From: an uncultured virus (IMG/VR IMGVR_UViG_3300012005_000005)
Lineage: Duplodnaviria; Heunggongvirae; Uroviricota; Caudoviricetes
Length of the DNA: 64,000 nt
Reading direction: 5' to 3' (one strand)
Virus record (IMG/VR): IMGVR_UViG_3300012005_000005
Shown in pieces: positions 45,103 through 55,120 of this stretch (positions are counted from its first letter, which is position 1; each line of letters opens with the position of its first letter). The translations under genes were made by a program, and so were the position numbers. Under the pieces are notes generated by a model. It did no database searches. It was not told the origin of the DNA and was given only the letters and a program-made list of their open reading frames with translations.

Positions 45103-45515
45103 TATATTCCTAATAGTTTCATTATTTGTCTAAATTCATTTATAGAAGGGCAGTATCCTCTAAAATATTGATTAGGTAATAAAGGTCTTGTACCTTTATC
45201 TATAGATAAAACATTCCCACCTGATGTATACCAACAATGCCAGTACTTATCTTTGGTAAATGATAATATTTCAGGATTGCTGCACTTTGCTTGTTTCCAC
45301 CCTTCTTCTTCTATTTGTTCTTTTGTTAGGTATTGAGTTCTGATTTCAGCATCATTATCCTTTTTATTATATTTACAGAAGTTTTCTAAATCATATAAAT
45401 TTTCTATTATTTCTTTATCCCAAATACCTCTTACAGGATCATTTTCTATTTCATATTCATACCCTACTCTTATGTCTTCTATTTCGGGGGTGAAGTATTT
45501 TTTATCTTTTTCCAT
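45102..45515 (-). CDS. Hypothetical phage protein
   Basis: YFTPEIEDIRVGYEYE...LTKEQIEEEGW; start moved to MEKD, downstream of the promoter. Confidence 0.7.
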   Translation of the reverse strand: MEKDKKYFTPEIEDIRVGYEYEIENDPVRGIWDKEIIENLYDLENFCKYNKKDNDAEIRTQYLTKEQIEEEGWKQAKCSNPEILSFTKDKYWHCWYTSGGNVLSIDKGTRPLLPNQYFRGYCPSINEFRQIMKLLGI

Positions 45516-45536
45516 AACTATTTGGTTTATAAAGAG

Positions 45537-45568
45537 CAAATATAATCAATTTTTATGACTTTACCAAA
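45537..45568 (-). promoter_or_regulatory. Bacteroidota sigma-A promoter
   Basis: TTTG-N20-TATATTTG. Confidence 0.75.
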
Positions 45569-45600
45569 TTTATTTTTAATCTTTGTTGATTATTTTAATT

Positions 45601-45651
45601 AAAAAAAGCCATCAGCCGATAGGGGATACCCCTGTCCTATGCTGACAGCTT
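45601..45651 (-). terminator. Long hairpin plus U run
   Basis: AGCTGTCAGC...GCTGATGGCT followed by a T run. Confidence 0.65.
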
Positions 45652-45656
45652 AAATT

Positions 45657-45687
45657 AAAAAGTCCCAAGATGGAAATCTTAGGACTT
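45657..45687 (-). terminator. Terminator of attenuator 3
   Basis: AAGTCCTAAGA-TTTCCA-TCTTGGGACTT then TTT. Confidence 0.75.
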
Positions 45688-45725
45688 ATATATTTTCAAT
45701 ACCAAGTTTATTTTTTATGAGTCTT

Positions 45726-45830
45726 TTAAGCCCAATCTGTATCTCTCGTATTAACATAACCCTTCTTGTCGTATGTAAAACACGGCTGTGTAGTTTGTTG
45801 ATGCCAAAATCGAGATACTAAATTTTTCAT
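45726..45830 (-). CDS. Leader peptide 3 (34 aa, MKNLVSRFWHQQTTQPCFTYDKKGYVNTRDTDWA)
   Basis: ATG 4 nt after TAGTTTTG; followed by a terminator; block of R(CGA)/F/W/H/Q/T/P/C codons. Confidence 0.7.
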   Translation of the reverse strand: MKNLVSRFWHQQTTQPCFTYDKKGYVNTRDTDWA

Positions 45831-45834
45831 AAAG

Positions 45835-45866
45835 CAAAACTAAGTAATTTTCTTGAAACTACCAAA
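45835..45866 (-). promoter_or_regulatory. Bacteroidota sigma-A promoter
   Basis: TTTG-N20-TAGTTTTG. Confidence 0.75.
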
Positions 45867-45883
45867 ACTATTTTAAAAAATAA

Positions 45884-46501
45884 CTAAAAATAATTAAAAA
45901 TCCAGGAATTTTCCTCTATTTCTACTAATTCAATACTTAAATCTTTAATTATTGTCTCTTTTTCACACTCATATACTTCTAAAGGGAGTTCTACTTTTTC
46001 TTTAAAAGGTTTTTCATATTTTTCATAAGAAAATATAAATCCCTTAGTAGTAAATTGCCTTTTAGCTACACAATTTATAATGCCAGTATATCTAATTTTT
46101 AATTCCTTAGAAGCTTCTTTAGCACTTATAAATTCTTTTATAAACTCTCCAAATAAATCATATTGATAAACTTTTTTGGGTTCTACAGGAACATAAGTTT
46201 TCCATTTTTTTCTTACTTCATCCCCTTTTAAAATATTTAAAAGTTGAAAACCCTTATCTAAATAAAGATTTATATAATATTTTTCTTTGCTTAGAAGAAT
46301 TTGTTTATTTAAAAATAGTAATTCTTCTAAAATTTCAAATTTATGATTTATTACACCATATTTTTTAAAAGAATTTAATAGTTTATGTTGTTGCTTACAG
46401 TTTAAAGTTTTATAATGTGACCATCTTCTTTCTATATTTAAAGATTCTCCTATGTAAATTTTATTAGTAGGAGAAGTTATTTTGTATATTCCTGATGTCA
46501 T
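45884..46501 (-). CDS. GIY-YIG homing endonuclease with NUMOD1
   Basis: SGIYKITSP..IYIGES and VYQYDLFGEFIKEF; start moved to MTSG. Confidence 0.85.
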   Translation of the reverse strand: MTSGIYKITSPTNKIYIGESLNIERRWSHYKTLNCKQQHKLLNSFKKYGVINHKFEILEELLFLNKQILLSKEKYYINLYLDKGFQLLNILKGDEVRKKWKTYVPVEPKKVYQYDLFGEFIKEFISAKEASKELKIRYTGIINCVAKRQFTTKGFIFSYEKYEKPFKEKVELPLEVYECEKETIIKDLSIELVEIEENSWIFNYF

Positions 46502-46507
46502 TGCATA

Positions 46508-46539
46508 CAAAATTATAAAAACTTTTTGATATTACCAAA
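46508..46539 (-). promoter_or_regulatory. Bacteroidota sigma-A promoter
   Basis: TTTG-N20-TAATTTTG. Confidence 0.7.
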
Positions 46540-46552
46540 TTTATTTTTAAAA

Positions 46553-46626
46553 GTGGGATAGAGGAGTCACCATCTCCATGCAGTTCCGTTTTACAGACGG
46601 TCTGACTTGCGCTGAGCATTATCCCA
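46553..46626 (-). tRNA. tRNA-Tyr(GTA), atypical/degenerate
   Basis: Acceptor TGGGATA/TATCCCA; anticodon arm CCGT-CTGTAAA-ACGG; non-canonical D and T loops. Confidence 0.55.
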
Positions 46627-46703
46627 ATATACATATCCAATCAGTATTAGTTCCATTAAACTCTACTAACCAAAGAATATTATTTAAGTTAATTATAAAC
46701 ATG

Positions 46704-46792
46704 CGGAAAACAGTGTACTCGAAACACATACCTCACAGGGTACATACGCCTTAGCAGGGCGTTGCTATTGTCCTAATATAGCTTTATTTTCC
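46704..46792 (-). tRNA. tRNA-Ser(GCT)
   Basis: ACGCC-CTGCTAA-GGCGT, long variable arm, TTCGA loop. Confidence 0.85.
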
Positions 46793-46797
46793 TTTTG

Positions 46798-46883
46798 CAG
46801 TAGGTGGAGGATTCCAACCCCCGTCGGTGTTACCCGCCTTCAGTTTTCAGGACTGCGCCATTAGCAAACTCTGGCAACCTACT
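46798..46883 (-). tRNA. tRNA-Ser(TGA)
   Basis: Acceptor AGTAGGT/ACCTACT; CAGT-CCTGAAA-ACTG; long variable arm. Confidence 0.75.
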
Positions 46884-46888
46884 ATTTG

Positions 46889-46962
46889 TACCGACAGTCC
46901 GATTTGAACGGACAAACTACACTTTCTAAGAATGTAAGGCGTACCAATTACCTCATGTCGGC
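46889..46962 (-). tRNA. tRNA-Leu(TAG)
   Basis: TACATT-CTTAGAA-AGTGTA; GTCCG-TTCAAAT-CGGAC. Confidence 0.85.
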
Positions 46963-46967
46963 GTTTG

Positions 46968-47042
46968 TGTTCCTACTGAGATTCGAACTCAGCCTTGTAA
47001 GATTTTTAAGACCTTTGCGTCCACCTACTGCGCCATAGGAAC
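46968..47042 (-). tRNA. tRNA-Leu(TAA)
   Basis: GTTCCTA/TAGGAAC; AAGGT-CTTAAAA-ATCTT; CTGAG-TTCGAAT-CTCAG. Confidence 0.88.
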
Positions 47043-47047
47043 GTTTG

Positions 47048-47119
47048 TACCCTTAGTAGGTCACGAGCCTACACTGATTACCTTTTGAGGGTAACGCCTC
47101 TGCATTGGGCTATAAGGGC
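47048..47119 (-). tRNA. tRNA-Leu(CAA)
   Basis: GCCCTTA/TAAGGGT; TTACC-CTCAAAA-GGTAA. Confidence 0.8.
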
Positions 47120-47121
47120 AT

Positions 47122-47152
47122 AAAAAAACCTTGTCTCAATTAAGCAACAAGG
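47122..47152 (-). terminator. Terminator of attenuator 1
   Basis: CCTTGT...ACAAGG plus T7, 2 nt upstream of tRNA-Leu(CAA). Confidence 0.8.
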
Positions 47153-47180
47153 TGTATATGTGTTTGAATGATTATAGGTA

Positions 47181-47264
47181 TTATCCTAATTCTATATCAT
47201 ACATTCCCCTGTCGCTATTTTGTAGCGATAAACTATAGAGACTATATGATGTAAATTGTTTCAT
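47181..47264 (-). CDS. Leader peptide 1 (27 aa, MKQFTSYSLYSLSLQNSDRGMYDIELG)
   Basis: Between promoter and terminator; 9 consecutive Ser/Tyr/Leu codons. Confidence 0.8.
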   Translation of the reverse strand: MKQFTSYSLYSLSLQNSDRGMYDIELG

Positions 47265-47279
47265 TATTTATTTAAAATG

Positions 47280-47311
47280 CAAATATACGTAAAATTTTTG
47301 ACATTGCCAAA
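47280..47311 (-). promoter_or_regulatory. Bacteroidota sigma-A promoter
   Basis: TTTG-N20-TATATTTG. Confidence 0.8.
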
Positions 47312-47319
47312 TATTTATT

Positions 47320-48333
47320 TTAACAAGTAGTTATAAAGTCTTCCCAAGCTTCTAAAGCTTCTTCATTATACCTTTTTAGAGATTTTTTTTCTTTTCTTAC
47401 TAAGGAGTTTCCATTTTTTAGAGCGTGTAACATTTTTTTTACTACTGCTTCTATGTTTGTAGTGGATGTTTTGCTTTCTTCTGGCAACCACTCTATTGTG
47501 TTTCCTACTATTATAGGAATTCCTTGTGATACAAAATCAGCGGCTACAATATTAAAAGATTCATTAAATGATAATTGCATTCCTAAATCCATATTTGAAA
47601 TAAGTCCTAAAAACTCCTCATGTGGAAGCCAAGAATGCTCAACTAACTCATGCTTAGTATTCTTAAACAAAGCTCTTAAATTCTTAACTACAGATTCTCC
47701 GCCTTGTTCTTGTCTTGTACTATTTACATGAAAGCGTATTAATTTATTTTGGTAATTGCCTAAACTTATAGAGGCAAAAGCTTGAAATAGTTGATTTTTC
47801 ATTGGTCTTAAGGCTCCAAAACAACCTATATCAATTACCTTTTTATTTTTAAACTCTCCCAAAAAATTTCTATCATCACAACCACTATAAATATTTGGAA
47901 GATATGGAAAATTTGTATAAAGTGTAGCCATAAAGGAAGTTTGAGCTTCTTTAGAATTAAAAGCTACTGATACATTAGAAATCTTTTTGTATTCTTTTAT
48001 CCAATCTATTGCTACACCCTCATTAGCTAAAAATGGAACTTCTGAGTGAATCCTTATTACAAATAACAAATCTTTATATAGTTTCTGTAATTCTTGTATT
48101 TTTTTGGGTGTAACCCAAATAGCTTCTATTATACATACATCCGGTCTATATTCATTAAGTTCTTTGTCTATGCTATTTCCATCTATACAGATTTTTAGAT
48201 CAGCTTCTATGTCTAAGTGTTCTTCTAAGCTCTCTTCGGTCATCTTTGCAGAATTAAATAATCCTGATGACAAGCCTTTGAAAGAATAGTTTCCGTAATT
48301 ATTTTGTTTTTTTAAAAGAAAAAGTATTTTCAT
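47320..48333 (-). CDS. Glycosyltransferase (GT-B fold-like)
   Basis: IGCFGALRPMKNQ...MDLGMQLSFNESFNIVAAD. Confidence 0.8.
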   Translation of the reverse strand: MKILFLLKKQNNYGNYSFKGLSSGLFNSAKMTEESLEEHLDIEADLKICIDGNSIDKELNEYRPDVCIIEAIWVTPKKIQELQKLYKDLLFVIRIHSEVPFLANEGVAIDWIKEYKKISNVSVAFNSKEAQTSFMATLYTNFPYLPNIYSGCDDRNFLGEFKNKKVIDIGCFGALRPMKNQLFQAFASISLGNYQNKLIRFHVNSTRQEQGGESVVKNLRALFKNTKHELVEHSWLPHEEFLGLISNMDLGMQLSFNESFNIVAADFVSQGIPIIVGNTIEWLPEESKTSTTNIEAVVKKMLHALKNGNSLVRKEKKSLKRYNEEALEAWEDFITTC

Positions 48334-48560
48334 TATACTGCTGGGGCTGGGTTTATTGTTACATCAATTCTATCTGAAGCATCTGTTAGTGTGCTATTTA
48401 GTGAAGCTATTGCTCCTGCGGTCATTGTATTTCCACTTGGAGTTATTGCTGATTCATTATCTAATATAGTACTTATTAACACTAACAAATTAGATAATTG
48501 CGCAATATCATTTTGTTGATCTACAGTGAATGCTACAGGAGGAATTACATTTATTGGCAT
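48333..48560 (-). CDS. Hypothetical protein
   Basis: 75 aa, stop overlaps the next start. Confidence 0.55.
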   Translation of the reverse strand: MPINVIPPVAFTVDQQNDIAQLSNLLVLISTILDNESAITPSGNTMTAGAIASLNSTLTDASDRIDVTINPAPAV

Positions 48561-48570
48561 TATTTACATT

Positions 48571-48732
48571 TTAAAAACGAAAATTGGTAAACTCTTTTAA
48601 TAACCATAAAAGACCTATAATTATTATTAGTGCTGAAAATAATTTTCTTTTTGGCTGGGTTAGTGTTATTAAATCAAGTAACAGAAAAGCTATTACATAA
48701 AATATTAAAACTAAGATTACTGCTGTTAACAT
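48571..48732 (-). CDS. Small two-TM membrane protein (53 aa, possible holin)
   Basis: MLTAVILVLIFYVIAFLLLDLITLTQPKRKLFSALIIIIGLLWLLKEFTNFRF; below the track length cutoff. Confidence 0.55.
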   Translation of the reverse strand: MLTAVILVLIFYVIAFLLLDLITLTQPKRKLFSALIIIIGLLWLLKEFTNFRF

Positions 48733-48763
48733 TGTTTATTATTTATTTATTTAAAAAGATTAA

Positions 48764-49228
48764 TTAATGAATAATTTTACCTACTAAAAACTCTATTACC
48801 CCTAATAAAATTAATAATCCTGTTCCATAGGTTGTTATTTGTGTAACCTTCTTCTCAATAAATCTGACTCTCATATCAATATCTTGCAAAGATGCTTCAA
48901 AATTAGCTTTATATAAGGCATCATAAGAATCTGAAACATTTAGTTTTTCCTTCTCTAAACTCTCAATTCTTCTTTCTGTTCCATTTGCAAGATTTTTAAT
49001 ATCTTCCCTTACACCTTCTATTCTTACTTTTAGTTCTACAAGTAGGTCATGGTCATTTCCATTGGTATTGACCAATACTCTACTTGCATCAATAGCGTTA
49101 CTGGCAACTAATTTACTTGCGGATTGTGCGGCATTAGCAATTACTGTTGCTGCCTGTTCTGCTGCCTTATTAATTAGTTTAACTGCATCGGCTGCATTTT
49201 TTATTGCTACTTCTTCATTATCATCCAT
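48764..49228 (-). CDS. Coiled-coil protein with C-terminal TM helix
   Basis: Ala-rich helix, DHDLLVEL motif, C-terminal hydrophobic segment. Confidence 0.65.
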   Translation of the reverse strand: MDDNEEVAIKNAADAVKLINKAAEQAATVIANAAQSASKLVASNAIDASRVLVNTNGNDHDLLVELKVRIEGVREDIKNLANGTERRIESLEKEKLNVSDSYDALYKANFEASLQDIDMRVRFIEKKVTQITTYGTGLLILLGVIEFLVGKIIH

Positions 49229-49236
49229 AAGTTATA

Positions 49237-49268
49237 CAAATATACGTAAAATAATTGGAATTACCAAA
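49237..49268 (-). promoter_or_regulatory. Bacteroidota sigma-A promoter
   Basis: TTTG-N20-TATATTTG. Confidence 0.75.
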
Positions 49269-49323
49269 TCCCATTATTCTTAGTCAGTCATAAATATAAA
49301 ATATGTAGTTTTAGTAGTATAAA

Positions 49324-49397
49324 TGGTGGACAGATGTGGGAGTCGAACCCAAACAATCTCCTTGCAAAGGAGTTGACCTGCCGTTGGCATCACGCCC
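49324..49397 (-). tRNA. tRNA-Ala(TGC)
   Basis: CTCC-TTTGCAA-GGAG, G3:U70 pair, encoded CCA; bulged acceptor stem. Confidence 0.75.
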
Positions 49398-49460
49398 ATA
49401 AAATTCCAAGCTCAATCCATCACGCAAGGATGTGCTTCTATACTGTTGGCTTGGACTTAG

Positions 49461-49534
49461 TTGTCGAAGTAGGATTTGAACCTACGGCCTCTTTCTTATC
49501 AGGAAATTGCGCTACCAAGCTGCGCCATTCGACA
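49461..49534 (-). tRNA. tRNA-Ile(GAT)
   Basis: TGTCGAA/TTCGACA; TTTC-CTGATAA-GAAA. Confidence 0.88.
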
Positions 49535-49539
49535 ATATG

Positions 49540-49611
49540 TTGATGCAGATGGAATCGAACCAACAATCACGGAGATATAAGCTCCGCACTCTACCATTGA
49601 ATTATGCATCA
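49540..49611 (-). tRNA. tRNA-Ile(TAT)
   Basis: TGATGCA/TGCATCA; CGGAG-CTTATAT-CTCCG. Confidence 0.85.
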
Positions 49612-49763
49612 ATATAATGGAAATTAGGAAACGTATTATTTTCTTTTTTATCCTTCGAGATGGGAAGCGCATTTCCACTAAGGTGCTATTTTGAAAGTTC
49701 AATCCTTAATAAGAACTTCCTTTTATCTAATAAGGCTTAAATATAGTGAAAAATAGCAAAACC

Positions 49764-49839
49764 TGGCAGAACACACGGGAGTTGAACCCGTTCCGTGCAC
49801 CTTGACAGGGTGACATCTTATCCGTTTGACCTGTGCTCT
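49764..49839 (-). tRNA. tRNA-Asp(GTC)
   Basis: AGAGCAC/GTGTTCT; CACC-CTGTCAA-GGTG; encoded CCA. Confidence 0.85.
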
Positions 49840-50861
49840 ATTAATTCTCTAAGTATTTCTACTCTTTGTTTATTTGTTTCTATTATATTATAATGTCTTT
49901 TTCCATATTCATAATTCATTTCTCCATAATCTTCTACTGCATTTGGGTTATTTATAAAAAATTTAAAAGCTTTATACCAATCCTGACCTTTGTCACAAAA
50001 AACTATACCTTTATGGTCTTTATCTGCTGTAAATGGTAAAACATTGCTGCAAATAAAGGGTTTTTTTGTAGAGGATGCCTCTAAAAACTTTAGATTTGAC
50101 TTACAACTGTTAAAAAAAGTGTCTTCTAATGGTGCAACTGTTATATCTCCATAATTATAATGCTCCATATACTTATCTAAAGTAAGAGTGTCTCTTCTAA
50201 TATATGAATTAGACTTTTTACATATAGATTCCATACTATACCAAGCATTTTGTTTACTATTTGTAGGGTTGTTATATCCACAAAGAGTAAAATTAGCCTT
50301 TTTTTTGAAGTCTGTATCTGTTCCAAGCCTTTGAAACAAACCACTAATGGATTTTAAGTCATTATAATGTGTACTTCCTGATACATATAAGAATCTTAAT
50401 TTATCTGAATCAGTTTTTCTATTCTCTACATCAAAGGAAAGTGCATTTGGTATAACAAAAATATTTTTATTATATACTTTATAAACATCCCTTAGTAACT
50501 CATTGGTTACAAATACTAAATCTGCCTGTTTGCATGCTTCTATTAAACGTTCTCCCAACTTTACCCTATTCCAATCTGTGTAGTATAAGTGATTATAAGG
50601 AAGTATATAGTAGTCATCTATATCTAAAACTATTTTAAAACCATATTTCTTCCTTAAAATGTTCATTACTTCCCACTCTTCAAACATCATACGTTTTAGA
50701 AAAACTATATCACAATCAAATATGGTCTCGTCCTTATAACAATCTTTGTGTCTTACAATTTTAATACTATCATTTTTTTCTAAATCAAAATAGTTGGTGG
50801 GTAAAAGAAGTCGGTGATAATCACATCCATCATTTTCGCTGTATAGGATAGTTATTCTCAT
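49818..50861 (-). CDS. Glycosyltransferase (GT-B, family 4-like)
   Basis: GCDYHRLLLP, LDIDD, VIPNA, APLEDTFFNSCKSNLKFLE. Confidence 0.85.
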   Translation of the reverse strand: MRITILYSENDGCDYHRLLLPTNYFDLEKNDSIKIVRHKDCYKDETIFDCDIVFLKRMMFEEWEVMNILRKKYGFKIVLDIDDYYILPYNHLYYTDWNRVKLGERLIEACKQADLVFVTNELLRDVYKVYNKNIFVIPNALSFDVENRKTDSDKLRFLYVSGSTHYNDLKSISGLFQRLGTDTDFKKKANFTLCGYNNPTNSKQNAWYSMESICKKSNSYIRRDTLTLDKYMEHYNYGDITVAPLEDTFFNSCKSNLKFLEASSTKKPFICSNVLPFTADKDHKGIVFCDKGQDWYKAFKFFINNPNAVEDYGEMNYEYGKRHYNIIETNKQRVEILRELIEHRSNG

Positions 50862-52078
50862 TCTACTACTTCAAAATTTGGTATTGGAATTACAAACTTT
50901 CCTTTATATCCAGCAGCTTTACATTTAGCAATTATTTCCTCTTTAAAATTCCACGATAGTATGACTAAATAATCAGGAGGATTTCTCATAAAATCATGAA
51001 TTGAAATAATTGGAATAAAAGTACCTGGTGAATATTTTCCTATTTTCTCAGGTGTTTCATCCACTATATATTTTATCCTTCCCACTGTAATGCCTGCACT
51101 GTTTAGTAGTGTATTTCCCTTTGCACTTGCTGCAAATGCTGCTACTGTTCCTCTCAAATTTAGGGCACTTATACCATCAGAAAATTCATTTATAGTTTGT
51201 TTCACTTCTTTGGCAAACTTTTTATAAGGTTCAATCCTATAGTAAGCCTCTTCTATCTTCAAAAAATCATAAACAGACTTATCAGGAAGTCCATTGCCAA
51301 TGGTTACTCTTACTGTTCCCCCATGAATATTTTGCTTTTCAACTTGTAGTATATTTAATCCAAATTTTGAACAAAGGATACCAATTGGATTTATAGAAAA
51401 ATAACTAAGATGTTCAAAATAGACAGTATCGAATTCTTTGTTTTCTATAAAATCAATTAGATATGGGAATTCAAGTATTAATTTACCTTCCGGTTTCAAC
51501 ATTATTTTTGCACCCTCTATAAAATCTTTCACATTGTCTACATGTGCGAATACATTAGTAGCAGTTATTAAATCTGCTTTACCATAACCGCTTCTTAATA
51601 AACGATTTGCAGTTTCTACACTCCAAAATTCAGTTAAAATAGGTACACCCACTGCTTCAGAAATTGCTGCTAAATTTTCTGCTGGGTCTATATTTAAAAC
51701 TTTTTCTCCTATAACTTTTTTAAACTGTTCAAGTAATGCTCCATCATTCCCTGCTATATCAATATGAAAAGAGTTTTCATTTAAACCCATTTTTTCTTTA
51801 AGATCAATAGCCATTTTCCTACAATGTTCAACATAAGTATTACTTATAGAAGAACGATAAACATAGTTTGAAAACAAAGTATGAGGATCTATTACAACAG
51901 ACAATTGACTCAGTCCGCAATCTGCACATAGTAAAACTTTTAATGGATAGGTTTCAGAATGAATGGGGTCTGATGTAGAGTTTGCTAAGTTATTACTTAA
52001 AGGCATATTACCTAAATCGAGGTAAGGTACTAACTTAGTACTGTTACATATTCTGCAATTTGTTTGATTTTTGTTCAT
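50858..52078 (-). CDS. SAM-dependent NDP-sugar C-methyltransferase-like protein
   Basis: CRIC...LGNMPLSN...CADCGLSQL, DIAGNDG, TNVFAHV, YFEHLSYF, AASAKGNTLL. Confidence 0.88.
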   Translation of the reverse strand: MNKNQTNCRICNSTKLVPYLDLGNMPLSNNLANSTSDPIHSETYPLKVLLCADCGLSQLSVVIDPHTLFSNYVYRSSISNTYVEHCRKMAIDLKEKMGLNENSFHIDIAGNDGALLEQFKKVIGEKVLNIDPAENLAAISEAVGVPILTEFWSVETANRLLRSGYGKADLITATNVFAHVDNVKDFIEGAKIMLKPEGKLILEFPYLIDFIENKEFDTVYFEHLSYFSINPIGILCSKFGLNILQVEKQNIHGGTVRVTIGNGLPDKSVYDFLKIEEAYYRIEPYKKFAKEVKQTINEFSDGISALNLRGTVAAFAASAKGNTLLNSAGITVGRIKYIVDETPEKIGKYSPGTFIPIISIHDFMRNPPDYLVILSWNFKEEIIAKCKAAGYKGKFVIPIPNFEVVE

Positions 52079-52095
52079 TTTTTATTTACTTTGTG

Positions 52096-53409
52096 TTAAT
52101 TATGTATTAATAAACATCCTGATACCTTTATCCACTTACTTGCTCCATATTTTTTAATAATATCATCAAAATAAGTCCAATCTGAGCTGTGACTTTTTAT
52201 ATCTCTCCATCCTACGCTGCATGCTGCACTCTTCTTTATCATTACTCCTGCACAATCTATATACCCTAACTGTAATTTACAATCTATTACTCCATATTTA
52301 TAATTATCCCACTTTAGATTGTCTGCACTTACTTGTCCATAGTTTAAAACAGTGGTTTGTTGAGGAGCTAAATAACTATGAACCATTTTAGAACAGTATG
52401 TAGCTACAGCATTTGGATTTTCTTTAAATCCAGTTAATAGGGTTTCTATATATGTTGGAACATGGTGATTATCTGCATTTGTAATTACTACATAGTCAGT
52501 ATTGGGTGATATTATATCCATATTTTTCAGTCCCCACTGTCTATAAAAATGTCCCCAATATCCTTTTCTTTCTGCAAATTCAATATAAGTTATTCTCTCA
52601 TCTCCTATTGTGGAAATAATTTTCTTCAGTCCTGTCTCATTTTTTCCATCATGAATTAGCAGCAACTTCCAATTTTTGTGAGTTTGATTTATTAAAGATG
52701 ATACTATTTCTGGATAAGTATTATAAACAGGACAAATAAAAGTAACTTTTTCTGAAAGATCTTTCTTAAAAACTGAATTAAATTCTTCTGTTCTACCTAA
52801 ATAACTTCTTATTTCTGTGTCCCATAAAGGACTGTTTGCTAATATAGGTTCTACTATTATTGCCTCCATTCCAAGTTTTTGAATCTGCAATAAGAAGTTA
52901 TTTTCTTCTCCGTGTTCAAACGAATAGCATTCTAATTTAGTATAAATTCTTTCCACAGGAAAAAAAAGCTTTTTTGAAGCACTTTTTGAAATAAGAAAAC
53001 CTGTTGTTCTTATATGTGGTCTAATTTGATTAGATATTTCTGTGCAAATTACTGCATTTTCATTTTCCTGAGACTTTTGAAGAAATGTTTTAAGAAAGTC
53101 TTTAGTCATAGGAATAACATCATCAGTTATCCACAGTAATTTATCCCAATTATTATCAAAACCTGAAAGTCTTTCTTTGCATACATCTTGAAAAACACCT
53201 ATATCATAACCAATATTTTCTCTTTGGATATATTTTATATTCTCTGCATCACACACATTTTTAAATTCCCTAACACTTACTTCTCTATCTATATTATGTA
53301 TAACAATTAGTTCTGCGCCTTCTTGATTACTTTGTTTCCAACAATCAATCCAACGTTTTAAATTATTTAATCTGTTGTAAATTATAATTACTACCTTGAT
53401 TTTTTGCAT
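52096..53409 (-). CDS. Two-domain glycosyltransferase (GT2-like)
   Basis: RENIGYDIG...PHIRTTGF N-domain; VTFICPVYN...QTHKNWKLLLIHDG...TNADN C-domain. Confidence 0.8.
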   Translation of the reverse strand: MQKIKVVIIIYNRLNNLKRWIDCWKQSNQEGAELIVIHNIDREVSVREFKNVCDAENIKYIQRENIGYDIGVFQDVCKERLSGFDNNWDKLLWITDDVIPMTKDFLKTFLQKSQENENAVICTEISNQIRPHIRTTGFLISKSASKKLFFPVERIYTKLECYSFEHGEENNFLLQIQKLGMEAIIVEPILANSPLWDTEIRSYLGRTEEFNSVFKKDLSEKVTFICPVYNTYPEIVSSLINQTHKNWKLLLIHDGKNETGLKKIISTIGDERITYIEFAERKGYWGHFYRQWGLKNMDIISPNTDYVVITNADNHHVPTYIETLLTGFKENPNAVATYCSKMVHSYLAPQQTTVLNYGQVSADNLKWDNYKYGVIDCKLQLGYIDCAGVMIKKSAACSVGWRDIKSHSSDWTYFDDIIKKYGASKWIKVSGCLLIHN

Positions 53410-53417
53410 ATATAGTG

Positions 53418-53449
53418 CAAAGATAATATAAAAAAATCAAATTGCCAAA
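53418..53449 (-). promoter_or_regulatory. Bacteroidota sigma-A promoter
   Basis: TTTG-N20-TATCTTTG. Confidence 0.75.
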
Positions 53450-53467
53450 TTTATTTTGTATTCATTG

Positions 53468-53538
53468 AGCGAATGGTGTGAATCGAACACACATCAAAAC
53501 TTTGGAAGAGTCTTGTTTTACCATTAAACTACACTCGC
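53468..53538 (-). tRNA. tRNA-Gly(TCC)
   Basis: GCGAGTG/CATTCGC; AGACT-CTTCCAA-AGTTT. Confidence 0.88.
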
Positions 53539-53541
53539 ATG

Positions 53542-53615
53542 TTTCGGGTGCAAGATTCGAACTTGCGGTATCCTACTTATGAGGAAGGTGAGATAGACCT
53601 CTTCTCTAACCCGAA
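53542..53615 (-). tRNA. tRNA-Met(CAT) (Ile2 not excluded)
   Basis: TTCGGGT/ACCCGAA; loop CTCATAA; GCAAG-TTCGAAT-CTTGC. Confidence 0.8.
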
Positions 53616-53764
53616 ATGTGGGACGTTGTTTTTTTATAGAACTTCGCCCAAAAACTATATGTTTTGACATTTTGCTGCGATTGATGCAATACGCTATTAT
53701 AATTCACGTACCCGTCTTCATTCAAACGTCTATGTGTCTGTCAACAACACATTACGTACAGTCG

Positions 53765-53917
53765 CTGTAGAAATAGGGATCGAACCTATAAGTGGAGATT
53801 AAAGTAAATACAAAATAAGATGTACATTTTACTGGTCAACCGATTATATCTACTCCGTTTCTTTTATCCACGCCACCGAGACAAGGTGGTGCGTCTGCCA
53901 AATTCCGCCACTCTACA
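53765..53917 (-). ncRNA. tRNA-like RNA (GTC loop) with 83-nt structured variable arm
   Basis: TGTAGAG/TTCTACA acceptor, Leu-like D arm, CCACC-TTGTCTC-GGTGG, ATAGG-TTCGATC-CCTAT. Confidence 0.7.
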
Positions 53918-53977
53918 ATTTATTATTTTCTACATTTTCCTACATTAAGGCNNNNNNNNNNGATGTTGTATAGTCCA

Positions 53978-54061
53978 TTAGTATCTTCTTAAAAGTGCTA
54001 AAATACAAAGAGCAATTCCACCTATTATTACTGAACCTATAGCTTCTAAAAATGTTTCCAT
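53978..54061 (-). CDS. Putative 27-aa membrane peptide (METFLEAIGSVIIGGIALCILALLRRY)
   Basis: ATG 4 nt after the TAACTTTG promoter element. Confidence 0.4.
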   Translation of the reverse strand: METFLEAIGSVIIGGIALCILALLRRY

Positions 54062-54065
54062 AATG

Positions 54066-54097
54066 CAAAGTTATATAATTATTTTGAACTTTCCAAA
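54066..54097 (-). promoter_or_regulatory. Bacteroidota sigma-A promoter
   Basis: TTTG-N20-TAACTTTG. Confidence 0.7.
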
Positions 54098-54107
54098 TTT
54101 ATTTTTG

Positions 54108-54184
54108 CGTTCAAGGAAGGATTCGAACCCGTCTGTCTTCGCTTTAAAAGAGCGTAGCTTATACCTGACTTAAGTTTCGAGGGT
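54108..54184 (-). pseudogene. Chimeric tRNA-Lys(TTT)
   Basis: CGCT-CTTTTAA-AGCG anticodon arm and GTTCGAATCC are present, but 5' ACCCTCG does not pair with 3' CTTGAAC. Confidence 0.6.
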
Positions 54185-54186
54185 AT

Positions 54187-54218
54187 AAAAAAACCCAAAA
54201 GTTTTTGTGCTCTTGGGT
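54187..54218 (-). terminator. Terminator of attenuator 2
   Basis: ACCCAAGA...TTTTGGGT plus T run, just upstream of the tRNA. Confidence 0.8.
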
Positions 54219-54246
54219 CTCATTATGAATCTATGTTAATTTCTTT

Positions 54247-54351
54247 TTATATTCCTGTTCCAACATAAGGATTCTGTTTACCCACAGAGCGAGATTTCTC
54301 TCCGCCATCGGCATTCATTCTATTATCCACTATGTTTACGTTTAAATACAT
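54247..54351 (-). CDS. Leader peptide 2 (34 aa, MYLNVNIVDNRMNADGGEKSRSVGKQNPYVGTGI)
   Basis: Between promoter and terminator; 16 consecutive purine-start codons. Confidence 0.75.
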   Translation of the reverse strand: MYLNVNIVDNRMNADGGEKSRSVGKQNPYVGTGI

Positions 54352-54375
54352 TGAAATTTTTATAAGTTTAAAGTG

Positions 54376-54406
54376 CAAATATAGGAAAACTTTTTTATAT
54401 TGCAAA
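54376..54406 (-). promoter_or_regulatory. Bacteroidota sigma-A promoter
   Basis: TTTG-N19-TATATTTG. Confidence 0.75.
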
Positions 54407-54449
54407 ATTTATTTTTAAAAATAATTGATTTTAATTATTATATACTTCT

Positions 54450-54713
54450 TTAATCATTTTGATGTGTATTTAATAATTTTTCAAAATCTTTTGGGGAAAG
54501 ATCAATCAAACATGTATCACCTGATTTAAGTTGTATCTGTGTTACATGTAAAACAGGGTCTCCATCAGCATCTCTGTGTGTTGGTCTATATGATTCTAAC
54601 TGAGAAGGTAAAAACTTAAACCAACTGTCTTCATATTCTTCTTTACCCATTACCTCTGCCCTACTTACACTATAAATTCTTATGTGTACTCTTATAAATC
54701 TTTCTGTAAACAT
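54450..54713 (-). CDS. Hypothetical protein
   Basis: Start moved to MFTERF, coupled by TAATG to the upstream gene. Confidence 0.6.
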   Translation of the reverse strand: MFTERFIRVHIRIYSVSRAEVMGKEEYEDSWFKFLPSQLESYRPTHRDADGDPVLHVTQIQLKSGDTCLIDLSPKDFEKLLNTHQND

Positions 54714-55120
54714 TATTTTATTTTTATTGATGTTGGTTTGTCTACTATAAATATAGCTTCTCCTGAATGTTTTTCCCACAGAGACAGCCAATCATTCCAT
54801 GCTATTTTTACAGGAAGTAGTCCACCATACTCTGCTACTAATATTGTATGTTCTTCATCTAATGGGTAGAAGTCATGTATTTCATTTGTATTTATTCCAT
54901 ATGGTTTATAATAGAATTCTAAATTCTTAGTGTTAAACATCTTCTCAAACCTATCATCCATGCCAAACTCTGAATCCTCATCATCCTCATCATTATCAAG
55001 GCCAAGTTTTCTTCTTGTTTTTCTATCTAAACCTCTTTCATCTTCTACATCGTCTCTATTTTCAGAGAGATAATCTTTTTTTGGTTTTGCATATTTAACT
55101 AATACTATTATTCTACTCAT
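54713..55120 (-). CDS. Hypothetical protein
   Basis: 135 aa with an acidic patch. Confidence 0.65.
   Translation of the reverse strand: MSRIIVLVKYAKPKKDYLSENRDDVEDERGLDRKTRRKLGLDNDEDDEDSEFGMDDRFEKMFNTKNLEFYYKPYGINTNEIHDFYPLDEEHTILVAEYGGLLPVKIAWNDWLSLWEKHSGEAIFIVDKPTSIKIK

What the first reader, a model, noticed from the sequence alone, without database searches (positions are those of the whole stretch)
46553..47311. Attenuator 1: Ser/Tyr/Leu leader in front of Leu-Leu-Leu-Ser-Ser-Tyr tRNAs
The leader has nine consecutive codons TCA TAT AGT CTC TAT AGT TTA TCG CTA. The downstream anticodons are CAA, TAA, TAG, TGA, GCT and GTA. GCGACAGGG (47207-47215) pairs over 9 bp with the terminator 5' arm CCTTGTTGC and is extended by TGTATG/TATACA. 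It is alternatively sequestered in the TCGCTA-CAAAA-TAGCGA hairpin. This is a classic 1:2 / 2:3 / 3:4 attenuator layout, and the terminator ends 2 nt before the first tRNA.
Basis: partly seen in the sequence, partly recalled or inferred. Interest (0 to 1): 0.85.

Follow-up and report, generated by a model that had tools for sequence, protein, structure and literature searches.

The report
Leader-peptide attenuator gating phage tRNA genes
A tiny translated "test" gene, spelled in the codons that the downstream phage tRNAs read, is wired to a switchable transcription stop, so the phage probably makes these tRNAs only when ribosomes read those codons slowly, a control long known for amino-acid synthesis genes.

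Summary
On the minus strand a Bacteroidota-type promoter (47311-47280) is followed by a 27-codon ORF (47264-47181) with nine consecutive Ser/Tyr/Leu codons. Next comes a hairpin plus U-run terminator (47153-47122). Two bases later the array Leu-Leu-Leu-Ser-Ser and a degenerate Tyr-like tRNA begins.

The codon run alone is not beyond chance in this window. Comparison makes the case. I compared 16 such units in 7 phages:
- the window (2 units);
- four uncultured relatives;
- Leptolyngbya phage Lbo-JY46;
- Cellulophaga phage phi4:1.

The shared features are:
- Each leader peptide is built from the amino acids of its own tRNA operon, even where the partition of tRNAs differs.
- In five of the six units with a run Arg codon and an operon tRNA-Arg, that codon matches the local isoacceptor.
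- The stop codon lies 55-69 nt before the first tRNA.
- A segment inside every ORF pairs with its own terminator's 5' arm (mean -14.0 against -9.2 kcal/mol for non-cognate pairs; 0 of 50,000 permutations reach this).

I read it as a ribosome-mediated, multivalent attenuator of a tRNA operon (about 0.8). Nothing is shown experimentally.

Eight literature searches found no description. This scan has noted the same kind of element before on other DNA.

The parts
47280..47311 (-). Promoter of Bacteroidota type (TTTG, 20 nt, TAnnTTTG)
   Evidence: 15 matches in the window against 4.18 expected, and 0 of 100 shuffles reach 15. Twelve lie in intergenic gaps on the gene strand (compared with the ORF list). 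The consensus itself is recalled, not taken from a call.
47181..47264 (-). Leader ORF, 27 codons plus TAA (MKQFTSYSLYSLSLQNSDRGMYDIELG). The ATG lies 15 nt after the promoter motif and there is no Shine-Dalgarno sequence.
   Evidence: The other two frames of the same span hold 3 and 4 stops. In a relative at about 85% identity the ORF and stop are kept, and all 10 indels lie after the stop.
47223..47249 (-). Regulatory run of nine Ser/Tyr/Leu codons (region 1). Two codons are for Ser-TGA, two for Ser-GCT, two for the Tyr-GTA-like tRNA and one for Leu-TAA. Of the two for Leu-TAG, CTC is read only with U34 four-box wobble. None is for Leu-CAA.
   Evidence: P of such a run in a random 26-residue peptide of phage composition is about 5e-6. 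There are no differences in the variant contigs.
47191..47255 (-). Hairpin 1 (regions 1:2). The run codons pair with the 3' part of the ORF, and the inner hairpin is TCGCTA-CAAAA-TAGCGA.
   Evidence: The ORF alone folds at -17.3 kcal/mol, z -2.89, reached by 1% of 300 shuffles.
47198..47217 (-). Region 2, the antiterminator 5' strand (UAGCGACAGGGG plus UGUAUG)
   Evidence: -16.0 kcal/mol with the terminator 5' arm, reached by 0 of 300 shuffles and 0 of 8 cross-type leaders.
47122..47162 (-). Region 3:4. CATATACA plus the terminator: 5' arm 47153-47144, loop 47143-47138, 3' arm 47137-47128, U-run to 47122.
   Evidence: hairpin -9.9 kcal/mol, seven U. The simple scan did not list it.
47047..47119 (-). 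tRNA-Leu (CAA), 73 nt, no long variable arm
   Evidence: 45.9 bits
46967..47042 (-). tRNA-Leu (TAA)
   Evidence: 51.9 bits
46888..46962 (-). tRNA-Leu (TAG)
   Evidence: 49.9 bits
46797..46883 (-). tRNA-Ser (TGA)
   Evidence: 33.9 bits; ARAGORN -ps90/-ps95 only
46703..46792 (-). tRNA-Ser (GCT)
   Evidence: ARAGORN. Not listed by Rfam.
46553..46625 (-). Degenerate tRNA-Tyr(GTA)-like gene, last of the operon, with a non-canonical T loop
   Evidence: found only at ARAGORN -ps70. The anticodon stem-loop aligns with tRNA-Tyr of L009 and L084. No Rfam hit.
46508..46539 (-). Next promoter of the same type (for the GIY-YIG endonuclease gene). It marks the end of the tRNA operon.
54187..54406 (-). Second unit of the same design in the window. 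It has a promoter (54406-54376), a 34-codon ORF (54351-54247, MYLNVNIVDNRMNADGGEKSRSVGKQNPYVGTGI), a terminator (54221-54190) with U-run to 54187, then a tRNA-Lys(TTT)-like sequence.
   Evidence: z -4.78; -16.0 kcal/mol antiterminator, 0 of 300 shuffles. It is homologous to the Lys/Cys/Val/Arg leaders of L006 and L009.

Best explanation
This is a ribosome-mediated (leader-peptide) transcription attenuator that gates a phage tRNA operon.

Proposed sequence of events:
- Host RNA polymerase starts at the Bacteroidota-type promoter.
- A ribosome translates the 27-codon leader.
- If the Ser, Tyr and Leu codons of the run (codons 6-14) are decoded slowly, the ribosome sits on region 1. Region 2 (UAGCGACAGGGG..UGUAUG) is then free to pair with CAUAUACA-CCUUGUUGC. 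This keeps the terminator's 5' arm from forming the terminator, so polymerase runs into the Leu-Leu-Leu-Ser-Ser-(Tyr) genes.
- If decoding is fast, the ribosome passes over region 2 and on to the stop codon, which lies 27 nt before the terminator stem. Region 1:2 re-forms behind it, the terminator forms, and transcription stops 2 nt before the first tRNA.

The result is negative feedback: the phage makes these tRNAs on demand.

Shown by sequence and comparison: the parts, their conserved spacing, the match of leader codons to operon tRNAs, and co-variation of the antiterminator with the terminator.

Inferred: translation of the ORF, termination at the hairpin, the stalling logic, and the physiological signal.
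For: 1. Anatomy in the window.

2. Sixteen units of promoter, ORF, terminator and tRNAs were found in 7 phages.
- The phages are the window, L005, L006 = Lbo-JY46, L007, L009, L084 and phi4:1.
- Their terminases are 30-60% identical to the window's.
- ORFs have 19-36 codons. Stop to first tRNA is 55-69 nt in 16 of 16. Stop to terminator stem is 17-29 nt in 15 of 16 and 9 nt in phi4:1 U3.
- Terminator hairpins fold at -9.9 to -23.9 kcal/mol, each followed by a U-run.

3. Leaders track their operons.
- Leu/Ser/Tyr operons have runs of 8-10 L/S/Y residues in 5 of 5 leaders (P 1e-5 or less each).
- Pro-Thr-Phe-Gln-His-Arg-Trp operons have runs of 11-13 of exactly those residues in 4 of 4 leaders.
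- L005, whose operon holds only Pro, Gln and His, has HPQPQH.
- phi4:1 partitions its tRNAs differently, and its leaders follow. QRLHLQELEQP precedes Pro Glu Gln His Leu Leu Arg. TKTGITVIDKTKGARA precedes Ala Lys Ile Gly Met Asp Thr Val Arg Met. NYCTYNNSNWSFSY precedes Tyr Ser Ser Asn Trp Phe.
- The cognate leader-operon assignment is the best of 6 permutations in 3 of 3 phages with three units.
- Every operon amino acid occurs in its leader in 13 of 15 units. Only Met is missing in the other 2.

4. Codon-level specificity. Run Arg codons are CGT/CGC where the operon has tRNA-Arg(ACG) and AGA where it has tRNA-Arg(TCT).

5. A segment in the 3' part of every ORF pairs with its own terminator's 5' arm.
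- Energies run from -10.1 to -18.4 kcal/mol.
- The cognate mean is -13.97 against -9.19 for non-cognate pairs, and 0 of 50,000 permutations reach it.
- The cognate terminator ranks 1-3 of 16 for 15 of 16 leaders.

6. With a ribosome mask on the run codons, the terminator 5' arm is predicted to be paired upstream. That pairing drops to 0.02-0.48 when the mask covers region 2, in 16 of 16 units.

7. A contig at about 85% identity (run X6).
- It shows no difference from the ATG through region 2 (47265-47207).
- It has 7 substitutions in the ORF's 3' part that change 4 residues but keep the frame and the stop.
- All 10 indels lie after the stop.
- A U-A to C-G change in the terminator stem is compensated on the other arm.
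- The new 5' arm is a perfect 7-bp complement of region 2.

8. No Rfam family other than tRNA matches the leaders.
Against: - No RNA data exist, so translation, termination and read-through are unobserved.
- The nine-codon run alone is within chance for this AT-rich window: 3 runs against 1.0 +/- 1.2.
- Only 12 of the 26 leader codons after the ATG are Ser/Tyr/Leu, and tRNA-Leu(CAA) has no TTG codon in the leader.
- Equilibrium folding of the transcript up to the terminator loop predicts the antiterminator even without any ribosome (0.97). It also predicts it with the ribosome at the stop codon (0.99). Termination under fast decoding therefore rests on kinetic trapping of hairpin 1:2 and on steric blocking by the terminating ribosome, neither of which I modelled.
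- The ORF hairpin is not more stable than shuffles in 8 of 16 units.
- Homologous leaders share ancestry, so the 16 units are perhaps 6-7 independent cases.
- The largest operon sets cover 59% of the proteome, so their enrichment is weak (P 0.001-0.006).
- The ORFs were picked by eye as the ATG/GTG frame that holds the run.
- phi4:1 U2 needs a GTG start.
Confidence: 0.8

Rival explanations
1. The terminator/antiterminator switch is real but is not read by a ribosome. A protein or an uncharged tRNA binds the leader RNA, in the manner of a T-box or TRAP, and the ORF is incidental.
For: The alternative pairings do not by themselves require translation. There is no Shine-Dalgarno sequence before the ATG. 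Equilibrium folding forms the antiterminator without a ribosome.
Against: - An open frame of 19-36 codons from a start near the 5' end holds the run in frame in 16 of 16 units, while the other frames carry 40 and 34 stops in 425 codons.
- The stop codon keeps a fixed distance to the terminator.
- Indels in a natural variant avoid the ORF.
- Up to 7-11 different amino acids, and isoacceptor-specific Arg codons, match the operon. No known single-ligand RNA sensor would explain this.
- No T-box or other Rfam family matches.
- Other genes of this phage also start 4-8 nt after the promoter motif without a Shine-Dalgarno sequence.
Confidence: 0.08
2. The small ORFs are ordinary small-protein genes, each with its own terminator. 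The tRNAs are made by constitutive leak-through or from unrecognised promoters, and the codon match is a by-product of composition.
For: Small ORFs are common between the tRNA clusters of these phages, for example the hydrophobic 27-46-residue ORFs in the window, L005 and L007. phi4:1 annotates one leader as hypothetical protein gp075.
Against: - Peptide order and C-terminal residues are not conserved, while the composition of the run is.
- Composition changes with the operon's tRNA content, including loss of Cys codons where the Cys tRNAs are absent and HPQPQH before Pro-Gln-His.
- The antiterminator strand inside the ORF co-varies with the terminator.
- No promoter motif lies between the terminator and the tRNAs, which are only 2 nt apart in the window.
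Confidence: 0.07
3. It is a chance arrangement. The hairpin merely ends upstream transcription and the codon run is an accident of an AT-rich sequence.
For: Runs of 9 or more L/S/Y codons occur by chance in this window. The simple terminator scan did not list the hairpin.
Against: A promoter lies between the upstream gene and the hairpin. The same design recurs in 16 units of 7 phages with matched content.
Confidence: 0.02

Closest known systems
Leader-peptide attenuators of enterobacterial amino-acid operons (trpL, hisL, leuL, pheL, and the multivalent thrL and ilvL). This rests on established knowledge and is recalled. For PMC1183508 I saw only the abstract in a search listing.
   Same: - A promoter-proximal short ORF with a run of regulatory codons.
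- Regions 1:2, 2:3 and 3:4, with an intrinsic terminator just before the regulated genes.
- A stalled ribosome frees the antiterminator strand.
- Several amino acids are sensed at once, as in thrL and ilvL.
   Different: - The regulated products are the tRNAs that read the regulatory codons, not biosynthetic enzymes.
- Up to 7-11 amino acids are sensed per leader, and three leaders together cover all 20.
- The element is encoded by phages.
- The promoter is of Bacteroidota type, there is no Shine-Dalgarno sequence and the 5' UTR is very short.
- No sequence similarity, and no Rfam leader family matches.
Leader-peptide attenuation of aminoacyl-tRNA synthetase genes: pheST of E. coli (recalled), and His-codon leaders before hisS paralogues and hisZ in bacilli (PMC2965389, passages seen)
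   Same: Ribosome-mediated attenuation applied to a component of the decoding machinery for the sensed amino acid.
   Different: The target is a protein gene for one amino acid. Here the target is an array of tRNA genes. That paper has 0 occurrences of 'tRNA gene' or 'tRNA operon'.
T-box riboswitches
   Same: They sense the supply of charged tRNA and choose between a terminator and an antiterminator ahead of translation-related genes.
   Different: A T-box binds one tRNA directly, has a specifier loop and a conserved T-box motif, and needs no ribosome. No T-box match here.
Earlier notes of this scan on other phage genomes (e1-2978539, e1-5943215, e1-5318471, e1-6043918, e1-5802700, e1-5886956, e1-5926040)
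   Same: The same reading: codon-matched leader ORF plus switchable terminator before phage tRNA arrays. The notes cover T4-like freshwater phages, jumbo phages and a marine Flavobacteria-type phage.
   Different: They concern other DNA and are AI notes. I did not examine those sequences. This lineage is crAss-related with Bacteroidota-type promoters.

Membership tests
Ribosome-mediated (leader-peptide) transcription attenuator | Short ORF starting close to the transcript's 5' end | tested here: met
   The ATG is 15 nt after the promoter motif, and the ORF has 27 codons. Among the 13 units, the distance from the promoter motif to the ATG is 4-24 nt in 9. In the other 4 the leader lies further downstream, behind a small ORF or a longer 5' region.
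Ribosome-mediated (leader-peptide) transcription attenuator | Run of regulatory codons cognate to what the operon supplies | tested here: met
   Nine S/Y/L codons lie before Leu x3, Ser x2 and a Tyr-like tRNA. The matching holds in 16 units, including phages with different partitions.
Ribosome-mediated (leader-peptide) transcription attenuator | Intrinsic terminator between the leader and the regulated genes | tested here: met
   A hairpin of -9.9 kcal/mol plus seven U ends 2 nt before the first tRNA. All 16 units have one. That it actually terminates is not shown.
Ribosome-mediated (leader-peptide) transcription attenuator | Antiterminator mutually exclusive with the terminator, using a strand that is otherwise sequestered by region 1 | tested here: met
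   -16.0 kcal/mol in the window. Cognate pairs beat non-cognate pairs in 0 of 50,000 permutations.
Ribosome-mediated (leader-peptide) transcription attenuator | A ribosome on the regulatory codons frees the antiterminator, and a ribosome further on prevents it | tested here: inconclusive
   The masked equilibrium folds agree for stalling on the run and for a ribosome over region 2. The no-ribosome and at-stop cases also predict the antiterminator in the window's unit. Kinetics were not modelled.
Ribosome-mediated (leader-peptide) transcription attenuator | Read-through rises when the cognate charged tRNA is limiting | not testable with these tools
   No RNA run holds the stretch. This needs experiment.
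T-box riboswitch | Match to the T-box covariance model (specifier loop, T-box motif) | tested here: not met
   Rfam search of 45400-55000 at E<=1 gave only tRNA and two weak spurious plastid-UTR hits.
Rfam amino-acid operon leaders (Leu, His, Thr, Trp leader families) | Sequence and structure match to a curated leader family | tested here: not met
   No such match. It works like these leaders but is not a member of those families.

The most novel reading that the evidence does not exclude
These phages carry a complete 20-amino-acid tRNA set split into three operons. Each operon sits behind its own multivalent leader-peptide attenuator, so the phage continuously measures the host's decoding capacity codon class by codon class. 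It switches on only the tRNA block that is short. This would let it adapt to hosts with different codon usage. It would also let it answer host tRNA depletion or cleavage (anticodon-nuclease defences, shut-off) on demand. The sensor would then act as a counter-defence rather than merely as housekeeping.
Probability: 0.3. Interest if true: 0.92.

Novelty: new variant of a known kind. Interest (0 to 1): 0.87.

Why it matters
Why phages carry tRNA genes, and when they use them, is a long-standing question. A codon-matched attenuator in front of each tRNA block gives a concrete and testable answer: the tRNAs are made when, and only when, ribosomes decode their codons slowly.

It would be the first case I know of (from recall and eight literature searches) in which leader-peptide attenuation controls tRNA genes. 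This closes a direct feedback loop between decoding speed and tRNA supply.

The design occurs in a cultured pair, Cellulophaga baltica with phage phi4:1, so it can be tested at the bench. The leaders could also serve as compact natural sensors of decoding capacity for chosen sets of codons.

It also corrects annotation. Some 'hypothetical proteins' between phage tRNAs are leader peptides or missed tRNAs.

Tried and rejected
- No whole genome is held for the window.
- A nucleotide search of the phage collection with 45500-49900 found only a tRNA-sized match to unrelated megaphage records.
- Loci found with the neighbouring glycosyltransferase or the terminase as single proteins were identical to the window over the leader, or cut short, and so uninformative.
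- Of the 80 loci from the terminase alignment, 75 had at most one tRNA upstream of the terminase and were not used.
- The metagenome scan gave 8 loci, of which only L084 was both new and long. In the regions printed, L085 is identical to L007.
- The tRNAs of the relatives are too divergent to give usable DNA patterns.
- Two leader-derived pattern scans returned, besides the known contigs, 5 and 1 stretches without tRNAs. I treat these as chance matches.
- A MAFFT alignment of the five Leu/Ser/Tyr leaders was too poor in the stem columns for column-wise covariation counts. I used cognate against non-cognate duplex energies instead.
- No RNA holder is listed among the sequencing runs.
- Equilibrium folding cannot reproduce the 'no translation gives termination' branch.
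- The simple promoter/terminator scan neither singled out the promoter among 55 sigma-70-like matches nor listed the terminator.
- The notebook of this scan holds no notes on this genome.
Full report
**What the window is.**
All long ORFs run on the minus strand. They include portal, large terminase, major head protein and a giant virion protein of the crAss-related kind. The nearest named relatives by terminase are Leptolyngbya phage Lbo-JY46 (51% identity) and Cellulophaga phages phi4:1 and phi17:2 (30%). A motif TTTG, 17-21 nt, TAnnTTTG occurs 15 times against 4.2 expected, and 0 of 100 shuffles reach 15. I recall this as the Bacteroidota housekeeping promoter consensus. Twelve of the matches sit in intergenic gaps on the gene strand, usually 4-8 nt before a start codon. 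The tRNA genes lie in blocks between these promoters.

**The observation.**
On the minus strand the order of parts is as follows.
- Promoter, 47311-47280.
- ATG at 47264 and a 27-codon ORF ending with TAA at 47183-47181.
- Within the ORF, the nine codons TCA TAT AGT CTC TAT AGT TTA TCG CTA (47249-47223).
- A long hairpin in which these codons pair with the 3' part of the ORF, with the inner hairpin TCGCTA-CAAAA-TAGCGA (47255-47191).
- A G+C-rich hairpin (47153-47128) with seven U ending at 47122.
- AT, then tRNA-Leu(CAA) at 47119.

The whole leader folds at -30.1 kcal/mol, z -3.35, matched by 0 of 200 shuffles. The pairing of GCGACAGGG with CCTTGTTGC is real: 9 bp, two of them G-U, extended by UGUAUG/CAUAUA. 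It scores -16.0 kcal/mol, reached by 0 of 300 shuffles of the leader.

The tRNA set is Leu CAA, Leu TAA, Leu TAG, Ser TGA, Ser GCT and a Tyr-like gene.
- Ser TGA needs relaxed settings.
- The 'Tyr GTA' is found only at a very permissive ARAGORN threshold and not by Rfam. It does sit where relatives have tRNA-Tyr and shares their anticodon stem-loop.
- A run of nine or more Leu/Ser/Tyr codons is not rare in this AT-rich window: 3 in six frames against 1.0 +/- 1.2 in 40 shuffles. The run alone proves nothing.

**Relatives.**
The window's near-identical copies in IMG/VR carry no information. An alignment of 37 terminases fetched 80 viral loci, and a second alignment of 34 fetched 8 metagenome loci. 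Only L005, L007 (matched by L085), L009 and L084 carry tRNA arrays upstream of the terminase. So does the named phage Lbo-JY46 (L006).

In these, and in the window's second unit (54406-54187), I found 13 units of the same build. Cellulophaga phage phi4:1 adds three more.
- In all 16 units the ORF has 19-36 codons.
- Its stop lies 55-69 nt before the first tRNA.
- The stop lies 17-29 nt before the terminator stem in 15 of 16 units (9 nt in phi4:1 U3).
- The terminator is a hairpin of -9.9 to -23.9 kcal/mol followed by a U-run.

**Leaders follow their operons.**
Leu/Ser/Tyr operons have these leaders:
- MKQFTSYSLYSLSLQ... (window);
- MKNFNTYYSLSLSLSQ... (Lbo-JY46);
- MKNFNTYYSLSLLSSL... (L009);
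- MKNCLSYSSLYYLSEL... (L007);
- MKTNNTYYSLSLSS... (L084).

The order and the choice between AGT and TCN serine codons vary, but the composition does not. In L009 each of the five tRNAs has exactly two codons in the ten-codon run (allowing U34 four-box wobble for two of them).

Pro-Thr-Phe-Gln-His-Arg-Trp operons have TRQHTQFWFPT and its variants. L005, whose operon holds only Pro, Gln and His, has HPQPQH.

The third operon type (Lys Cys Val Arg, then Asn Met Gly Glu Asp Ile Ile Ala in L009) has leaders rich in exactly these residues. The window's version has lost both the Cys codons and the Cys tRNAs.

The longest runs have P of 1e-5 to below 5e-6 for the two smaller sets and 0.001-0.006 for the large set, for random peptides of phage composition.

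phi4:1 splits its tRNAs differently, and its leaders change accordingly.
- QRLHLQELEQP precedes Pro Glu Gln His Leu Leu Arg.
- TKTGITVIDKTKGARA precedes Ala Lys Ile Gly Met Asp Thr Val Arg Met.
- NYCTYNNSNWSFSY precedes Tyr Ser Ser Asn Trp Phe and a probable Cys.

In each of the three phages with three units, the cognate assignment is the best of the six possible. Every operon amino acid appears in its leader in 13 of 15 units, and only Met is missing in the other two.

In five of the six units with a run Arg codon and a detected operon tRNA-Arg, that codon is CGT where the operon has anticodon ACG and AGA where it has TCT; in L084 it is CGC. Arg codons outside the runs do not always follow this.

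In L009, and in phi4:1 with its probable Cys, the three operon sets add up to all 20 amino acids.

**The switch.**
In every unit a segment in the 3' part of the ORF is complementary to its own terminator's 5' arm, although the terminators differ in sequence. Examples are UAGCGACAGGGG / CCUUGUUGC, GGGAGCU / AGCUCCC, AGCUGGA / UCCAGCU, UGCCAGGGU / ACCCUGGC and CGCUCUGUGGGU / ACCCAAGAGC.
- Cognate duplexes average -13.97 kcal/mol against -9.19 for non-cognate ones, and 0 of 50,000 permutations reach the cognate mean.
- The cognate terminator ranks first for 8 of 16 leaders and within the top three for 15 of 16.
- Against shuffled leaders, the cognate energy is reached by at most 3.3% of shuffles in 11 of the first 13 units, by 6% and 10% in the other two, and by 6-11% in phi4:1.
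- The ORF alone forms a hairpin with mean z -2.16. It is individually significant in 8 of 16 units.

I then masked a ribosome-sized stretch at each A-site position and folded the transcript up to the terminator loop. The 5' arm is paired upstream while the ribosome is on the run codons. This pairing drops to 0.02-0.48 when the mask covers the complementary segment.

Two branches are not reproduced at equilibrium. Without a ribosome, and with the ribosome at the stop codon, the window's unit still prefers the antiterminator (0.97 and 0.99). Termination under fast decoding must therefore rest on two things: hairpin 1:2 forming first or re-forming behind the ribosome, and a ribosome parked at the conserved distance before the terminator. 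This part is inference.

**A natural variant.**
Contigs of a coded run (X6) cover 47071-47320 at about 85% identity (31 substitutions, 10 gaps).
- From 47265 to 47207 (ATG, run, region 2) there is no difference.
- The ORF's last third has seven substitutions that change four residues but keep the frame and the stop.
- All ten indels lie between the stop and the tRNA.
- In the terminator stem a U-A pair becomes C-G by changes on both arms.
- The new 5' arm is a perfect 7-bp complement of GACAGGG in region 2.

This is the pattern expected of a translated regulatory leader whose C-terminal residues do not matter. It rests on one low-depth contig.

**What it is not.**
Rfam finds nothing but tRNAs here, so there is no T-box and no curated leader family. 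The peptide is unlikely to be a functional protein: its order and its tail are free to vary while the composition of its run is fixed by the neighbouring tRNAs.

**Known or new.**
The logic is that of the enterobacterial leader-peptide attenuators, including the multivalent thr and ilv leaders (recalled). It also resembles leader peptides before synthetase genes (PMC2965389, passages seen).

None turned up a paper that describes such control of tRNA genes. Only listings and abstracts were seen for the hits. Subscription journals are not covered, and no paper on Lbo-JY46 was found.

This scan has already noted the same kind of element in other phage genomes. Those are unchecked AI notes on other DNA. 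They agree with my reading, which I had reached before I looked them up.

**Verdict.**
It is a new variant of a known kind of regulator and has not been shown experimentally. My confidence that it works as a ribosome-mediated attenuator of the tRNA operon is about 0.8.

Noticed in passing
window 54406-54187 (-): A second attenuator of the same build: promoter, 34-codon ORF, terminator, then a tRNA-Lys(TTT)-like sequence that ARAGORN and Rfam do not call. It is homologous to the Lys/Cys/Val/Arg leaders of L006 and L009, but has no Cys codons and no Cys tRNAs follow it.
   Followed up: partly
window 47119-46888 (-); L006, L007, L009: The three tRNA-Leu genes are 73-76 nt long and lack the long variable arm usual for bacterial tRNA-Leu. 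In L084 both tRNA-Leu genes, and in phi4:1 tRNA-Leu(TAA), keep a longer arm. tRNA-Leu(CAA) also has an unusual T loop.
   Followed up: no
window 53917-53766 (-): A tRNA-like gene of about 150 nt. Its acceptor, D and anticodon arms (loop with GTC) are separated from a canonical T arm by roughly 100 nt of inserted sequence. It is not called by any tool.
   Followed up: no
window 53970-53961: A run of ten N (masked or unresolved bases) just upstream of the tRNA-like gene at 53917-53766.
   Followed up: no
window 54053-53970 (-); L007 5565-5653; L005 ~190-315: Small hydrophobic ORFs of 27-46 residues start right after promoters inside the tRNA region. In L007 and L005 they directly precede, and overlap by ATGA, the leader ORF. 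Their role is unknown.
   Followed up: no
window 45884-46510 (-): A GIY-YIG homing-endonuclease gene lies directly after the tRNA operon. HNH or homing-endonuclease-like genes also interrupt the arrays in L006, L007 and L084.
   Followed up: no
L006 (PP438436.1): Lbo-JY46 is recorded with a cyanobacterial host, yet its tRNA-operon promoters fit the TTTG..TAnnTTTG motif that I recall as typical of Bacteroidota. The record's host, or my reading of the motif, may need a second look.
   Followed up: no
L100 (NC_021788.1), record 90117-90218 and 87989-88108: In phi4:1 the CDS gp076 overlaps a tRNA-Ser(TGA) found by ARAGORN -ps90. gp075 is the leader ORF of the second unit, annotated with a TTG start that overlaps the promoter. 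Of the two 'tRNA-Pseudo' features, one is called tRNA-Asn (GTT) by ARAGORN -ps90; the other reads GCA (Cys) by my reading of its loop, and ARAGORN left it unassigned.
   Followed up: partly
window 49839-49767 (-): A tRNA-Asp(GTC), found by Rfam at 45.1 bits, overlaps the 3' end of the glycosyltransferase ORF 49818-50861. It shares 83% identity with megaphage records.
   Followed up: no
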